Origin: Escherichia phage 235Ecol030PP
Sequence record: PP355091.1
Length of the DNA: 64,000 nucleotides
Strand: one strand, 5' to 3'
This document shows positions 8,840-12,460 of this stretch, in pieces. The position numbers and the translations under genes were made by a program. The notes under the pieces are model-generated. The model saw only the letters and a program-made list of their open reading frames with translations. It had not been told where the DNA came from and did no database searches. Numbering within the stretch: the first letter of the stretch is position 1; each line of letters opens with the position of its first letter.

Positions 8840-9310
8840 TTAATCATGTTTCCACACCCCATCGGTATTTGACCAAAGTCGCTGATTATCTGATCCTCGC
8901 CACAGCTTTTTAGTCGGAAGATTTTTCTCATACTTCCCATCAATAATAACATCAACATATTTAAGCATTTCTAGTTGTTTAATATCTTCAAACTTATATC
9001 CTGTCCACAACCAAATGCTTTTATTTGGATAAAGATTTTTTACTGTTTGAACAATGCAATGAATAACATCTCGATTATCAGGATAGAGAGGGTCACCTCC
9101 GGTTATAGTCAATCCTTCTATATAATCATTATTCAAACATTCAATTAATTGTTCTAGTGTTTCACCAGTGAATGGAATACCATTTCTAGCATTCCATGTT
9201 GATTTATTATAACACCCTTCGCATTTATGCAAACAACCTGTAACGAAAAGAACTGTCCTGCATCCAGGGCCATTCACAAAGCAGCACGGGTATATTCTGT
9301 CATAATTCAT
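8840..9310 (-). CDS. nrdG: Anaerobic ribonucleotide reductase activating protein NrdG (radical SAM)
   Basis: 156 aa; MNYDRIYPCCFVNGPGCRTVLFVTGCLHKCEGC (Cys cluster) and GGDPLY motif; adjacent to nrdD. Confidence 0.9.
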   Translation of the reverse strand: MNYDRIYPCCFVNGPGCRTVLFVTGCLHKCEGCYNKSTWNARNGIPFTGETLEQLIECLNNDYIEGLTITGGDPLYPDNRDVIHCIVQTVKNLYPNKSIWLWTGYKFEDIKQLEMLKYVDVIIDGKYEKNLPTKKLWRGSDNQRLWSNTDGVWKHD

Positions 9311-10139
9311 TTATATATTTCCAATTATAGCCTTCAACACTTTTACGTTCGCCATTTAAACATTTTAAAATATTTCCTTTGCTAGAAATATTAAAATATT
9401 TTGCTGCGTCTGGTATATAATTAAATGTTTTTAAAAGAACACCATCTTTATATGCGCCAAATAAATTAAGAGTATATTTTTCTCGAAGACGTTGATGTTT
9501 CCTTTTCATAACCTCAGGATTTGCATACGCCAACCTCAATGAATTTCTATGTTTTTCTTTTACTTCAGGTTTTTGCATTGCTAACTTAGTTAGCCTGGAA
9601 ATTTTATTTCTAACTTCGTCAGTTTTCATTGCATTTGACAAATTTAATAAAGTTTTATTTCTAACTTCAGGTTTTTGCATTGCTAACTTAGTTAGTTCTC
9701 TATGTCTTTTTCTAAAATCGTCATCCTTCCATATATTTTTCGATAATTTTGACATAGAGCGGTGAAATAATTCCTTTTCACCGGAATACAATTTAAGAAT
9801 TTCATCCAATTCATCTGTATTAAATCTATCGGTATTCGAGTTTATCATTCTATGAAAGGCATAACACATTTTACTATTACTTGTTTTAGCTAAATAGTAA
9901 TGAGCTAACGCGTGGTCATAATATGACAAATTAACAATATTCCATTTATCTGTTTTATATTCAGGAAATATAGATTTGGGAAGCACGTGATGTGCTTCCG
10001 TTTTTCCTTTTATTTTAGGATTATTATAATTTTTTGTTATCAAATCAACATATGACAATAGTAAATCATTATTTTCTTCAAATATTAAAGATAATTTATC
10101 ATTCACAAAATCGCAAGGATAAAATCTATCATAATTCAT
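9300..10139 (-). CDS. mobD: Free-standing HNH-family homing endonuclease (mobD-like) between nrdD and nrdG
   Basis: 279 aa; HNH core EAHHVLPKSIFPEYKTDKWNIVNLSYYDHALAHY; repeated KLAMQKPEV modules; start overlaps nrdD stop (ATGA), stop overlaps nrdG start; gene symbol by position only. Confidence 0.7.
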   Translation of the reverse strand: MNYDRFYPCDFVNDKLSLIFEENNDLLLSYVDLITKNYNNPKIKGKTEAHHVLPKSIFPEYKTDKWNIVNLSYYDHALAHYYLAKTSNSKMCYAFHRMINSNTDRFNTDELDEILKLYSGEKELFHRSMSKLSKNIWKDDDFRKRHRELTKLAMQKPEVRNKTLLNLSNAMKTDEVRNKISRLTKLAMQKPEVKEKHRNSLRLAYANPEVMKRKHQRLREKYTLNLFGAYKDGVLLKTFNYIPDAAKYFNISSKGNILKCLNGERKSVEGYNWKYINEL

Positions 10140-11415
10140 TGGTGTTTAACCCTATGCATGATTTCTTTATTTTTACCGAGATTAAATCCGCGTTCGTTCG
10201 GGTTTCCAAGATATCCGCATGTTCTTCTTATGGTGTTCATCTTTTTAGGATCAGTTTCTCCACAAATAGAACAAACAAATCCGTTTTCAGTAGGAGTCAT
10301 TTCATGGGTACTTCCACATGTAAAACATTTATCTACTGGCATATTAACACCAAAATAATCTAAATGCTGTGCAGCATAATCCCATACGGCCTCAAGACCT
10401 TTTAGGTTATTTTTCATATCAGGAAGTTCAACATAAGAAATGTGACCACCTGTCGCAATGAAATGATATGGGGCTTCGCGAGAAATCTTTTCAAACGGAG
10501 TAATATTTTCTTCTACTGAAACATGGAAACTGTTAGTGTACCAGCCTTTATCAGTAACATCTTTTACACTTCCATATTTTTCTGTATCAAGTTTACAGAA
10601 GCGATAACAAAGGTTTTCAGCAGGAGTCGAATACAAACTAAAAGCAAACCCAGTTCTTTCAGTCCACTGTTTAAGACGAGCATTCATTTTAGTTAAAATT
10701 TCTTGTCCAATATCACGACCGACAAGAATATTCAATTCATGAATACCAATGTATCCTAAAGACACTGAACTTCTGCCATTTTTAAATAACTCAATTATAT
10801 CGTCATCAGGTTTAAGACGAACCCCGAATGCACCTTCTTGGTAAAGAATAGGAGCAACAGTCGCTTTAACTCCTTTTAAGGAACTAATTCTACACATCAA
10901 TGCTTCAAAACATAAATCCATTCGTTCATTGAACAATTCAACAAATTTCTGTTCATTGAACTGTGTTCCAATATAAGAATCTAACGCAATACGAGGAAGA
11001 TTCAATGTTACAACGCCAAGATTATTACGTCCATCAAGAATTTCATTACCAGTCGAATCTTTCCATACGCTCAAGAAACTACGGCAACCCATTGGAGAAA
11101 CAGGAATAGATGAACCGGTGATAGCTTTATTGTTCTTAGCTGAAATAATATCAGGATACATTCTTTTGCTTGCACACTTTAGAGCAAGCTGCTTAATATC
11201 ATAGTTCGGATCGTCTTTGTAAAGATTAACGCCTTCTTCGACGAACATAACAAGCTTAGGGAAAATAGGAGTTATCCCATCACGACCAAGACCTTTAATA
11301 CGATTTTTCAGAATTGCTTTCTGAATCATTCGTTCAGTCCAGTCAGTTCCCGTACCAAATGTAATTGTTACAAAAGGAGTCTGTCCGTTTGAACTGAAAA
11401 GTGTATTTACTTCAT
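10136..11415 (-). CDS. nrdD: Anaerobic ribonucleotide reductase NrdD, exon 2 (3' splice site position approximate)
   Basis: Large ORF with class III RNR C-terminal region including glycyl-radical region; exon boundary inferred from expected ~605-aa length and a G at 11416; not experimentally defined. Confidence 0.75.
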
Positions 11416-12460
11416 CATTATATTCAGCATGAGTCGCAAATTCATGCTCGTTTATATGAAACAACAAAATTTGGATAGTCCATAGATATGCAACGTTCTT
11501 TTATAGTGCTAGGATGAAAATTTAGCGCTTTAGCTGCTTCTATATAAGACGTATACTTAATACCGTCAACAACCACATATTCAGGAACTTTATGAATAGT
11601 AGTCTTAATACTCAAAACAAGAGGATGAGTTTCGACTTCACTTTCAGTGCAATTTAAATATTCCGCTGCTTTTTTAAAACTTCTAAAAGTTTTATTTTTA
11701 AGCTTTATCGATACTTGTTTTTTACTTTTTCGACTATTGATATTATTTTGCACATGTTCCTTAGATCTTCCGTTTTTAGCATAATATTCAGCTACAGAAG
11801 ATTTTATATTGTTTTTATGAGATTCGGATAACACTTTACCCTTATGAGCATCTCTTAATTTTTGAATATGTTCTTCAGTATCCGGATGCTTATAAAACTT
11901 TTTACCGCCTATGGATTTATTTAAACATTTTTTGCTATAAAAATATTTACGTATGACCTCTTCTTCATGTTTTAATGCATCTTTATAACTATCAAATGTT
12001 TTTAAAATTATCCATTTAGTAGGTGTATCAGTTTTTAAGCGTTCATTTATATACTTAGATGACGTTGTGTAAGTTTTCCAGTTTGTGGGCTTGTTTTTAA
12101 TTGTTCTAAATTTTTTATAACCGATATAAATGTCGCCATTAGAAAACTTAACTAAGTATGTAAATGCGTCTTTATCTTTTATTTTAGTACAACGTCTTTT
12201 TATCCATTTCATTGTTTCACCTCGTATTCATAAGATAATCTTATTTATACAAGATGACTGCTGCATGTCGCCATGCAGATTAGACTATATCTTCATCTTT
12301 CGATGCCGGCCGTTTCGAATAGCATTAGCTTCTATTCTACACCGCTACATTCATCACGGTTAGTCGTTAGGCATTTAGTTCAAAAGAACATTTAGCACGG
12401 GATTGTCTACTAGAGAGGTTCCCCGTTTAGACCGGTTTTACATGAGCCTGAATTAAATTA
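11416..12460 (-). mobile_element. Group I self-splicing intron in nrdD (sunY-type) carrying I-TevII ORF; boundaries approximate (about +/-10 nt)
   Basis: nrdD reading frame interrupted by about 1 kb; contains GIY-YIG endonuclease ORF; putative P1 pairing (exon ...AUGAGU with intron GCUCAU) near 12461. Confidence 0.7.
11442..12212 (-). CDS. I-TevII: Intron-encoded homing endonuclease I-TevII
   Basis: 256 aa; MKWIKRRCTKIKDKDAFTYLVKFSNGDIYIGYKK... (GIY-YIG-type N-terminus); lies inside nrdD intron as in T4. Confidence 0.85.
   Translation of the reverse strand: MKWIKRRCTKIKDKDAFTYLVKFSNGDIYIGYKKFRTIKNKPTNWKTYTTSSKYINERLKTDTPTKWIILKTFDSYKDALKHEEEVIRKYFYSKKCLNKSIGGKKFYKHPDTEEHIQKLRDAHKGKVLSESHKNNIKSSVAEYYAKNGRSKEHVQNNINSRKSKKQVSIKLKNKTFRSFKKAAEYLNCTESEVETHPLVLSIKTTIHKVPEYVVVDGIKYTSYIEAAKALNFHPSTIKERCISMDYPNFVVSYKRA

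What the first reader, a model, noticed from the sequence alone, without database searches (positions are those of the whole stretch)
9300..10139. HNH homing endonuclease wedged between nrdD and nrdG, beginning with a copy of the nrdG 5' coding sequence
The ORF has an HNH core (EAHHVLP...NLSYYDHALAHY) and repeated KLAMQKPEV(R/K) modules encoded by a roughly 33-bp tandem DNA repeat (about 9563-9595 and 9669-9700). Its first 14 codons (MNYDRFYPCDFVND) are homologous at DNA level to the nrdG start (MNYDRIYPCCFVNG, about 34 of 42 nt). Its ATG overlaps the nrdD stop and its stop overlaps the nrdG start. This looks like a homing-site duplication or capture of the nrdG initiation region.
Basis: seen in the sequence. 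Interest (0 to 1): 0.6.

Follow-up and report, generated by a model that had tools for sequence, protein, structure and literature searches.

The report
Homing endonuclease gene inside nrdG start
A selfish HNH homing-endonuclease gene of a T4-like phage, already annotated as "mobC" in close relatives, sits inside the first codons of nrdG, borrows that gene's start codon, and carries a re-coded spare copy of the displaced gene start. It is a tidy example of a known kind of element, not a new kind.

Summary
ORF 9300-10139 (-) encodes a 279-aa Mob-family HNH homing endonuclease between nrdD and nrdG of a Tequatrovirus. It is 98% identical to the gene annotated "mobC" in Yersinia phage PST, but it is not the T4 mobC gene. 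The protein has an HNH core, an array of 17-aa modules and a weak NUMOD1-like C-terminus.

Nucleotides -1 to 40 of nrdG occur twice, 829 bp apart, with 33 of 41 positions identical; shuffles reach at most 27.

Endonuclease-free relatives show that the 829-bp cassette lies after nrdG nt 40. The upstream copy matches the local endonuclease-free nrdG allele in both Escherichia-type and Klebsiella-type phages. It supplies the mobC ATG, which overlaps the nrdD stop as ATGA. The downstream copy rebuilds nrdG with a distinct "CC" haplotype, with changes confined to nt 12-30 (F6I, D10C).

That haplotype has 69 carriers. Among the 60 records listed, all but two sit next to an endonuclease gene where the annotation is informative. 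The neighbour is this mobC or the GIY-YIG gene segH.

mobC is under strong purifying selection (dN/dS 0.07) and is more similar between genera than its flanks.

Whether the re-coded patch gives immunity to cleavage is inferred only.

The parts
9300..10139 (-). PST-type mobC ORF, 279 aa, a Mob-family HNH homing endonuclease
   Evidence: ORF list. Yersinia phage PST, 98% identical across the locus, annotates the gene at this position 'mobC: homing endonuclease'. phrog_655 matches at E=3.8e-36. dN/dS is 0.07 against the Klebsiella-phage homologue.
10100..10140 (-). Upstream copy of nrdG nt -1 to 40: the resident nrdG initiation region, now the first 13 codons plus 1 nt of mobC
   Evidence: Direct repeat D3. 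It is 36 of 36 identical to the nrdG 5' end of hundreds of endonuclease-free phages. The Sf23 sequence is and the alignment.
9271..9311 (-). Downstream copy of nrdG nt -1 to 40, carried at the 3' end of the cassette; it restores a full-length nrdG
   Evidence: Direct repeat D3, 33 of 41 identical. Alignment A4.
9281..9299 (-). Endonuclease-linked 'CC' patch, nrdG nt 12-30: 8 substitutions relative to endonuclease-free alleles (F6I, D10C)
   Evidence: Differences from 9 endonuclease-free Tequatrovirus nrdG genes cluster at nt 12, 16, 18, 21, 24 and 28-30. The haplotype is found in 69 records; among the 60 listed, only two are empty sites.
10100..10109 (-). Left copy of the 10-nt core TTTGTGAATG (nrdG nt 31-40), identical at both ends of the insert; the left junction follows it
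9271..9280 (-). Right copy of the 10-nt core TTTGTGAATG; the resident nrdG sequence resumes after it
10136..10139 (-). ATGA overlap of the nrdD stop and the mobC start (formerly the nrdG start)
   Evidence: The junction is identical in endonuclease-free Sf23.
9300..9310 (-). 11-nt overlap of the mobC 3' end (..N E L stop) with the rebuilt nrdG start; the mobC stop codon is supplied by nrdG sequence read in another frame
   Evidence: T4 mobC ends on nrdG in the same way.
9885..10007 (-). HNH core, residues about 45-85 (E48, H50, H51, N67, H76 and H80 invariant in the family alignment)
   Evidence: The AF2 model shows strand 47-51, strand 68-72 and helix 73-84 at pLDDT 87-94.
9480..9734 (-). Five 17-aa helical modules ([M/Y]xx[P/D]EV[R/K/M]xK...), residues about 136-220; includes the exact 32-nt copies at 9562-9593 and 9664-9695
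   Evidence: The modules were read from the translation. No Pfam NUMOD3 match.
9306..9458 (-). C-terminal NUMOD1 / I-HmuI-like putative DNA-binding domain, residues about 228-278
   Evidence: Sub-threshold Pfam matches. phrog_7140 and phrog_20162 match residues 228-278.
8840..9310 (-). nrdG (anaerobic ribonucleotide reductase activase), intact, 156 aa
   Evidence: Fer4_12 at E=4.6e-48 and Radical_SAM.
10136..11467 (-). 3' exon region of nrdD
   Evidence: NRDD at E=6.6e-123 and Gly_radical. PST annotates it as nrdD-B.

Best explanation
What it is. This is a free-standing Mob-family HNH homing-endonuclease gene cassette of 829 bp. It lies inside the 5' end of nrdG, after nt 40, rather than between genes.

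Shown by sequence comparison:
1. The cassette leaves the resident first 40 nt of nrdG in place upstream. The endonuclease ORF continues in frame from them. MobC is therefore initiated at the old nrdG ATG, which overlaps the nrdD stop as ATGA. Its first 13 residues are NrdG residues.
2. The cassette carries its own copy of nrdG nt 1-40 at its 3' end. This rebuilds a complete nrdG whose ATG lies 8 nt before the mobC stop.
3. That carried copy is a distinct haplotype, with differences only at nt 12-30 (F6I, D10C).
4. The same cassette sits at the same nucleotide position in two phage genera. In each genus the upstream copy equals the local endonuclease-free allele, and the downstream copy encodes MNYDRIYPCC.
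5. The endonuclease is under strong purifying selection. It is less diverged between the genera than the flanking genes.

Inferred, not shown:
- MobC is translated by coupling to nrdD, and nrdG is then re-initiated by coupling to mobC.
- MobC cuts or nicks endonuclease-free nrdG close to nt 40. Repair from a mobC-bearing genome uses the nrdD 3' end plus the upstream copy as the left arm and nrdG from about nt 31 onward as the right arm. This would copy the endonuclease gene and the re-coded patch together.
- In the mobC-bearing genome the target is lost at the left junction, where its right half is replaced by mobC. It is altered at the right junction, where its left half is re-coded. This would give the kind of self-protection that intron insertion gives intron-encoded endonucleases.
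For: Identity of the gene:
- The locus is 98% identical to Yersinia phage PST, whose record annotates the gene at this position as mobC.
- phrog_655 and phrog_12434 match, and the HNH core aligns to T4 MobC.
- HNH residues are invariant across homologues.

Insertion point and capture of the start:
- Sf23 and L006-L013 have the nrdD stop, the identical 40 nt, then GCCCTGG.
- The 36-nt upstream copy is 100% identical to the nrdG start in hundreds of endonuclease-free records.
- Family-conserved columns start at K15, and homologues elsewhere have unrelated N-termini.
- There is no ATG, GTG or TTG in frame between codon 2 and codon 27 (sequence).

Same architecture in the Klebsiella-phage lineage:
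- The upstream copy of Roth77 and UTI-K1 equals the nrdG start of the endonuclease-free loci L023 and L032.
- Their downstream copy encodes MNYDRIYPCC with synonymous differences.

The patch is sharply delimited:
- The window differs from endonuclease-free Tequatroviruses at nt 12, 16, 18, 21, 24 and 28-30 (nt 16 is shared by two of the nine), then only at polymorphic sites.
- Roth77 differs from L023 at nt 6-29.

Selection and transfer:
- mobC is 84.6% identical between the genera, with dN/dS 0.07 and dS 0.98.
- nrdG is 69.6% identical (dS 1.5) and the nrdD 3' end 74.4% (dS 1.7).

Distribution typical of a homing element:
- 31 records hold at least 80% of this mobC.
- 561 records have nrdD running directly into nrdG (at least 80% of the nrdD/nrdG junction query in one stretch).

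Parallel case, T4-type mobC:
- It starts with nrdG nt 1-20.
- In Klebsiella phage Wolf_ER13 it is identical to the T4 gene except at nt 8-9, which are the local allele.
- T4-like nrdG sequence extends through nt 113 and stops there.

Linkage of the patch to endonuclease genes:
- There are 69 carriers. Of the 60 listed, only U5 and ESh24 have an empty site.
Against: - No cleavage data exist for this protein. The T4 review lists MobC activity as not determined and its target as unknown (PMC2988022).
- The same CC patch sits next to the unrelated GIY-YIG gene segH in T6, RB3 and others. It is therefore not specific to this cassette. It could be a scar of one endonuclease gene replacing the other.
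- From my recollection of the Sandegren et al. 2005 abstract (paper not held), SegH cleaves its own phage's DNA as well. This weakens the general assumption of sequence immunity at this locus.
- Two empty sites carry the patch (U5, ESh24). It could simply be a natural nrdG allele.
- One close relative, BF15, has a frameshifted copy. Some copies are therefore decaying.
Confidence: 0.65

Rival explanations
1. Neutral scar. The partial duplication is a by-product of an old illegitimate insertion. The CC patch is just the nrdG allele of the original donor, or of a segH-bearing ancestor, and hitch-hikes by tight linkage. It has no role in protecting the genome from MobC.
For: - The patch is shared with segH loci and with two empty sites.
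- T4-type mobC is also followed by a long foreign nrdG tract, nt 24-297 and about 35% diverged. That tract looks like plain co-conversion from a diverged donor.
- The flanks around the cassette are a free mosaic. All four combinations of the nt-36 polymorphism occur in the two copies.
Against: - The patch is only about 19 nt long and ends before nt 36.
- It includes a three-base change of an Asp codon. That Asp is conserved in every endonuclease-free NrdG fetched, across several T4-like lineages.
- Its distinguishing positions (codon 6 ATA, codon 8 CCR, codon 10 TGC) are kept in both genera while neighbouring synonymous sites have drifted.
- It is almost absent from about 560 empty sites.
Confidence: 0.3
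2. Decaying remnant. The ORF is a former homing endonuclease that no longer cuts DNA. It persists only because nrdG expression now depends on its reading frame and on the rebuilt start.
For: - T4 Mob proteins other than MobE have no demonstrated activity (PMC2988022).
- BF15 carries a frameshift, with a stop at codon 38.
- A 34-aa in-frame deletion variant exists (P0003).
Against: - dN/dS is 0.07 over the whole protein between genera.
- All HNH motif residues are intact and invariant.
- The cassette occupies the same site in two genera, with local flanks in each. mobC is more similar between the genera than its flanks are. Both point to transfer after the genera split.
Confidence: 0.1
3. Chance or annotation artefact. 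The N-terminal resemblance to NrdG is coincidental, or the upstream copy is an untranslated remnant and MobC starts further downstream.
For: In-frame TTG codons exist at codons 28 and 33 (sequence). The first 4 residues of the model have low confidence.
Against: - 33 of 41 identical, against a maximum of 27 in 200 shuffles.
- The upstream copy is exactly the nrdG start of endonuclease-free relatives.
- Family-invariant K15 and E21, and a confidently modelled helix at 9-20, lie upstream of any alternative start codon.
Confidence: 0.03

Closest known systems
T4 MobC (NP_049689; H-N-H free-standing endonuclease between nrdG and nrdD)
   Same: - Same locus and same geometry: ATGA overlap with the nrdD stop and an 11-nt overlap with the nrdG start.
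- Same PHROG family, phrog_655.
- It also begins with nrdG codons (nt 1-20) and ends ..EL-stop on the rebuilt nrdG start.
- It is also found in a Klebsiella phage with a locally derived upstream copy.
   Different: - It is a different gene lineage: only 38% identity over 60 aa of the HNH core and about 30% overall, 210 aa against 279 aa.
- Its junction is at about nrdG nt 20, not nt 40.
- It is followed by a long foreign nrdG tract (113-297 nt) rather than a 19-nt patch.
- It is not linked to the CC haplotype.
SegH (GIY-YIG free-standing endonuclease of T6, RB3 and others, described as replacing mobC; Sandegren et al. 2005, cited in PMC2988022)
   Same: It occupies the same nrdD/nrdG site. Its stop overlaps the nrdG start. 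It is linked to the identical CC haplotype of nrdG nt 12-30.
   Different: - It is an unrelated protein, with no significant similarity and a GIY-YIG catalytic domain.
- It has no upstream nrdG copy. It has its own start after an intergenic spacer, and the nrdD 3' end is different.
Aeromonas phage Aeh1 mobE, which splits nrdA ('genes in pieces'; PMC3045599 abstract)
   Same: A Mob-type HNH gene inserted inside a ribonucleotide reductase coding sequence rather than between genes.
   Different: There the host gene stays split into two polypeptides that reassemble. Here the host gene is made whole again by a carried copy of its 5' end, and the displaced piece is fused to the endonuclease.
Partial gene-end duplications next to free-standing endonuclease ORFs in fungal mitochondria (C-terminal atp6 and cob duplications flanked by GIY-YIG or LAGLIDADG ORFs; PMC6279837)
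   Same: A free-standing endonuclease ORF is associated with a duplicated terminal segment of the coding sequence it invaded.
   Different: Those duplications are at the 3' ends of mitochondrial genes. Here the 5' end of a phage gene is duplicated, and the resident copy is reused as the endonuclease's own translation start.
Intron-encoded homing endonucleases, for example I-TevII in the nrdD intron of this same window
   Same: If the inferred mechanism is right, the logic is shared: insertion destroys the recognition site, so the carrier is protected and empty alleles are converted.
   Different: No intron or intein is involved. The host gene is kept functional by duplication and re-coding instead of splicing. 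Cleavage and protection are untested here.

Membership tests
HNH (beta-beta-alpha-metal) nuclease superfamily | Conserved H-N-H catalytic motif (His general base, Asn, metal-binding His) | tested here: met
   E48, H50, H51, N67, H76 and H80 are invariant in the alignments of 8 and 9 homologues. The motif aligns to the HNH core of T4 MobC at E=2e-7.
HNH (beta-beta-alpha-metal) nuclease superfamily | Significant match to a curated HNH profile | tested here: inconclusive
   Pfam HNH models give no match. PHROG profiles labelled homing/HNH endonuclease match strongly. A family profile hits PDB HNH domains (McrA, pyocin AP41, Cas8f-HNH) only at E 0.04-0.27.
HNH (beta-beta-alpha-metal) nuclease superfamily | Beta-beta-alpha fold around the motif | tested here: inconclusive
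T4-type Mob family of free-standing endonucleases (phrog_655) | Profile membership together with T4 MobC | tested here: met
   phrog_655 matches at E=3.8e-36 for this protein and 4e-43 for T4 MobC.
T4-type Mob family of free-standing endonucleases (phrog_655) | Modular C-terminal DNA-binding region (NUMOD-type) | tested here: inconclusive
   I-HmuI NUMOD-like at E=2.3e-4 and NUMOD1 at 5.8e-3, both below the Pfam cut-offs. The 17-aa modules are not recognised as NUMOD3.
Orthologue of T4 mobC | Full-length sequence similarity to T4 MobC | tested here: not met
   Only 60 aa align, at 38% identity. DNA searches with each gene find non-overlapping sets of phages.
Homing endonuclease gene (mobile by homing) | Sporadic presence or absence at one precise site among close relatives | tested here: met
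   31 records hold at least 80% of the gene. 561 records match at least 80% of the nrdD/nrdG junction query in one stretch, i.e. have no insert. The junctions are identical in all 8 carriers examined.
Homing endonuclease gene (mobile by homing) | Evidence of horizontal movement independent of the flanks | tested here: met
   It occupies the same site in the Tequatrovirus and Klebsiella-phage lineages, with local flanks in each. mobC has dS 0.98 against 1.5-1.7 for the flanking genes.
Homing endonuclease gene (mobile by homing) | Site-specific cleavage of the empty allele and over-transmission in mixed infection | not testable with these tools
   Needs enzyme assays and phage crosses. The T4 review lists MobC activity as not determined (PMC2988022).

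The most novel reading that the evidence does not exclude
Free-standing endonuclease genes at the nrdD/nrdG hot-spot may achieve intron-like self-protection without an intron. The cassette would insert within the recognition site in the coding sequence. It would turn the displaced gene start into its own translation start. It would also bring a re-coded, cleavage-resistant replacement of that gene start. The short CC patch (nrdG nt 12-30, including D10C at an otherwise conserved residue) would be the immunity determinant. It may also be a marker fought over by two competing endonuclease genes, this mobC and segH.
Probability: 0.35. Interest if true: 0.6.

Novelty: new member of a known kind. 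Interest (0 to 1): 0.38.

Why it matters
The gene itself is ordinary. It is a Mob-family homing endonuclease at a locus known since the T4 genome was annotated, and it is already labelled mobC or homing endonuclease in several GenBank records.

The comparison adds a precise anatomy:
- The insertion point is resolved to the nucleotide.
- The element's two ends are defined.
- Two different Mob genes show that these "intergenic" endonuclease genes actually sit inside the nrdG coding sequence and reuse its start.
- A short nrdG haplotype is almost exclusively linked to endonuclease occupancy, by two unrelated enzymes.

This gives a directly testable prediction of the MobC target, around nrdG nt 12-55, and of the bases that confer resistance. 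No target is listed for MobC in the T4 review (PMC2988022).

It also has a practical use for annotation. At least one record (UTI-K1) names the homologous gene as an NrdG activase, probably because of the captured codons.

Tried and rejected
- Pfam search for an HNH domain, on the whole protein and on the isolated core at E<=10: nothing. NCBIfam: nothing relevant.
- phmmer against PDB sequences: no nuclease.
- Sandegren et al. 2005, the paper most likely to describe this site, is not in the held library by PMC id or DOI. Other papers mentioning mobC say nothing about a duplicated nrdG start.
- Idea that nt 36 co-varies between the two copies, which would have mapped the right crossover: rejected, because all four combinations occur among 8 carriers.
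- Idea that SegH and this MobC share a DNA-binding domain: no significant similarity.
- Search for a paralogue of this gene elsewhere in the window: none.
- Flanking haplotypes could not show whether U5 and ESh24 lost mobC or never had it. The region is a recombination mosaic.
- An exact-pattern scan of IMG/VR for the nrdD/nrdG junction gave only 9 loci, all endonuclease-free.
- Rfam found no group I intron model in nrdD.
- The sigma-70 and terminator scan found nothing above shuffle expectation.
Full report
**Context.** The window is from a T4-like phage (Tequatrovirus). Around the finding, all on the minus strand, lie:
- gene 49 (endonuclease VII);
- nrdD, split by an ORF-bearing intron (I-TevII-like GIY-YIG ORF at 11442-12212);
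- the ORF in question (9300-10139);
- nrdG (8840-9310).

The 1.8-kb interval is 96-98% identical over its full length to 21 phage records. Yersinia phage PST labels the ORF "mobC: homing endonuclease".

**Check of the observation.**
- The ORF is 279 aa. Its ATG overlaps the nrdD stop (ATGA, 10136-10139). Its stop lies 8 nt inside nrdG, an 11-nt overlap at 9300-9310.
- The two copies of the nrdG start are 10100-10140 and 9271-9311, with 33 of 41 positions identical.
- This is the only strong non-self match of that 41-mer in the window. The next best is 24 of 41, and 200 shuffles of the window never exceeded 27 of 41.
- The internal repeat is real but is not a 33-bp tandem repeat. Two exact 32-nt copies (9562-9593 and 9664-9695) are 102 nt apart, inside an imperfect 51-nt-period array that encodes 17-aa modules.

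**Is it an HNH endonuclease?**
- Pfam does not see an HNH domain.
- The protein matches phrog_655 "homing endonuclease" (3.8e-36) and phrog_12434 "HNH endonuclease" (1.9e-15). T4 MobC matches the same phrog_655.
- Its core aligns with the HNH core of T4 MobC at E=2e-7.
- In alignments of its 7 database homologues, with and without T4 MobC, residues E48, H50, H51, N67, H76 and H80 are invariant.
- A profile of that alignment picks out the HNH motifs of McrA, pyocin AP41 and Cas8f-HNH among PDB sequences, but only weakly, at E 0.04-0.27.
- The C-terminus gives only sub-threshold NUMOD1 / I-HmuI-like matches.

I accept the HNH assignment on the profile and motif evidence.

**It is not T4 mobC.**
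- T4's own mobC occupies the same position with the same overlaps. It is 210 aa and aligns with this protein only over 60 aa at 38% identity.
- DNA searches with the two genes recover different phage sets: 31 records for this type and 32 for the T4 type.
- A third, unrelated occupant of the site is the GIY-YIG gene segH, found in 71 records including T6 and RB3.

**Defining the insertion.**
- In endonuclease-free Tequatroviruses, the nrdD stop overlaps an nrdG that begins ATGAATTATGATAGATTTTATCCTTGCGATTTTGTGAATG|GCCCTGGATGC (Sf23; L006-L013).
- In the window the same 40 nt follow nrdD, but after the bar comes ATAAATTATC..., the body of mobC. 829 bp later a second ...TTTGTGAATG is followed by GCCCTGGATGC.
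- The 36 nt of the upstream copy included in a DNA search are 100% identical to the nrdG start of hundreds of endonuclease-free records.
- So the upstream copy is the resident nrdG start, and mobC is fused in frame to its first 13 codons.
- Family-conserved columns begin at K15. Homologues at other loci start with unrelated sequences (MKNFKLDINDEF..., MKDLLKSKLG..., MEENGKRV...).
- There is no alternative start codon between codon 2 and codon 27.

**The same structure in a second genus.**
- Klebsiella phages Roth77 and UTI-K1 (Jiaodavirus) carry an 84-85% identical gene.
- Their upstream copy (ATGAATTTCGACAGAATCTACCCTTCTGACTTTGTGAATG) is identical to the nrdG start of endonuclease-free loci of that lineage (L023, L032).
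- Their downstream copy again encodes MNYDRIYPCC.
- Between the genera, mobC is 84.6% identical with dN/dS 0.07 and dS 0.98. nrdG is 69.6% identical (dS 1.5) and the nrdD 3' end 74.4% (dS 1.7).
- The endonuclease is therefore under purifying selection. It has moved between the lineages more recently than they diverged.

**The downstream copy is a special haplotype.**
- Against nine endonuclease-free Tequatrovirus nrdG genes, the window differs at nt 12, 16, 18, 21, 24, 28, 29 and 30 (nt 16 matches in two of them). After that it differs only at scattered polymorphic sites.
- Roth77 differs from its endonuclease-free relative at nt 6-29.
- Features common to all carriers: codon 6 ATA, codon 8 CCR instead of CCY, and codon 10 TGC instead of GAY (D10C).
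- Asp10 is present in every endonuclease-free NrdG fetched, including distant T4-like lineages.
- A search with the 45-nt CC allele finds 69 records. In the 60 listed, it abuts a homing-endonuclease gene (this mobC or segH) wherever the annotation is informative. The exceptions are phage U5 and Shigella phage ESh24, where it follows nrdD directly.
- Conversely, 561 records have nrdD running straight into nrdG, and apart from those two none ranks as carrying the patch.
- T6 shows the identical patch after segH, with no upstream nrdG copy.

**A parallel in T4-type mobC.**
- T4 mobC begins with nrdG nt 1-20.
- In Klebsiella phage Wolf_ER13 the gene is identical to T4's except at nt 8-9, which are the local nrdG allele.
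- Wolf_ER13's nrdG is T4-like through nt 113 and local afterwards.
- T4's own nrdG is about 35% diverged from other Tequatroviruses over nt 24-297.
- So two different Mob genes use the same trick, with different junctions and different co-conversion tract lengths.

**Mechanism (inference).**
- *Translation.* Because the captured start is the one that natively follows the nrdD stop as ATGA, MobC is most likely made by translational coupling to nrdD. nrdG, whose new ATG lies 8 nt upstream of the mobC stop, would then be re-initiated after mobC.
- *Position of the break.* In both genera the upstream copy is local right up to nt 40, and local sequence resumes by about nt 31-36 of the downstream copy. 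This fits a break close to the insertion point with little co-conversion.
- *Self-protection.* In a carrier, the sequence spanning nt 12-55 of an empty nrdG exists nowhere intact. At the left junction its right half is replaced by mobC. At the right junction its left half is re-coded. That would protect the carrier in the way intron insertion protects intron-bearing alleles.

**Caveats on the mechanism.**
- There are no cleavage data for any MobC (PMC2988022).
- The patch is shared with segH. It could be a scar of one gene replacing the other.
- By my recollection of the Sandegren 2005 abstract, SegH cuts its own DNA too.
- Two empty sites carry the patch.
- The flanks are a free recombination mosaic, so the history of U5 and ESh24 cannot be reconstructed.

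**Comparison with what is known.**
- The element is a member of the T4 Mob family at a documented endonuclease hot-spot.
- The review of T4 mobile elements treats mobC as lying between nrdG and nrdD, promoter-less, with an uncertain translation start. It does not mention a duplicated nrdG start.
- Aeh1 mobE splits nrdA (PMC3045599).
- Fungal mitochondrial atp6 and cob have C-terminal duplications flanked by free-standing endonuclease ORFs (PMC6279837).
- In-frame loss or gain of repeats in endonuclease DNA-binding regions is described for ICP1 phages (PMC10448857). This matches the 34-aa deletion variant P0003 seen here.

**Verdict.** The object is a new, uncharacterised lineage of a known kind of element, already annotated in relatives. 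The anatomy is clean and gives a testable target-site prediction, but nothing here is categorically new.

Noticed in passing
window 9979-9999: A perfect 8-9 bp hairpin (GGAAGCAC..GTGCTTCC) lies exactly on the codons for the catalytic motif E-A-H-H-V-L-P. The stem is kept in Klebsiella phage Roth77 although the loop codons differ (CACCAT against CATCAC). The scan flags it as terminator-like on the antisense strand.
   Followed up: partly
window 9562-9593 and 9664-9695; L004 (Roth77) mobC: The two 32-nt repeat copies are identical to each other in each genome, but both carry the same two substitutions in Roth77 relative to the window. This suggests concerted evolution between the copies. Database protein P0003 lacks exactly 34 aa, one 102-nt unit, as expected from recombination between them.
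   Followed up: partly
L048 (Escherichia phage BF15, MW822007.1): The closest relative of the window's mobC (99.6% identical) has a 1-nt insertion that puts a stop at codon 38. The record annotates only a shorter internal ORF. This is either a decaying copy or a sequencing error.
   Followed up: partly
window 11442-12453: nrdD is interrupted by an ORF-bearing intervening sequence. The ORF at 11442-12212 has a SegE-like GIY-YIG domain and NUMOD1, and is annotated I-TevII in PST and T4. The Rfam gathering search found no group I intron model there.
   Followed up: partly
L005 (Klebsiella phage UTI-K1, OL870318.1) 1377-2213: The mobC homologue is annotated 'ribonucleotide reductase class III activating protein'. 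This is probably a mis-annotation seeded by the captured NrdG codons.
   Followed up: no
L003 (T4) nrdG nt 24-297: T4's nrdG is about 35% diverged from all other Tequatrovirus nrdG genes over this stretch and near-identical beyond it. This is a long foreign tract next to T4-type mobC. In Klebsiella phage Wolf_ER13 (L046), nrdG is identical to T4's through nt 113 and differs beyond that.
   Followed up: partly
L044 (phage U5, AY262145.2) and L045 (Shigella phage ESh24): These two are the empty nrdD/nrdG junctions seen to carry the endonuclease-linked CC haplotype (9 of the 69 carriers were not listed). They are candidates for precise loss of the endonuclease gene or for resistant alleles. The flanks are too mosaic to decide.
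   Followed up: partly
L004 2298-2531; L046 1298-1537: The Klebsiella-phage lineage has an extra ORF of about 77 aa between nrdD and nrdG (or mobC). Its stop overlaps the nrdG or mobC ATG in the way the nrdD stop does in Tequatroviruses.
   Followed up: no
window 9311-9340: The last codons of mobC contain TATAAT and TATAAATG immediately upstream of the rebuilt nrdG ATG. TATAAATG is 7 of 8 of the T4 late-promoter consensus TATAAATA, which I quote from memory. [quoted passage not shown] Not tested here.
   Followed up: no
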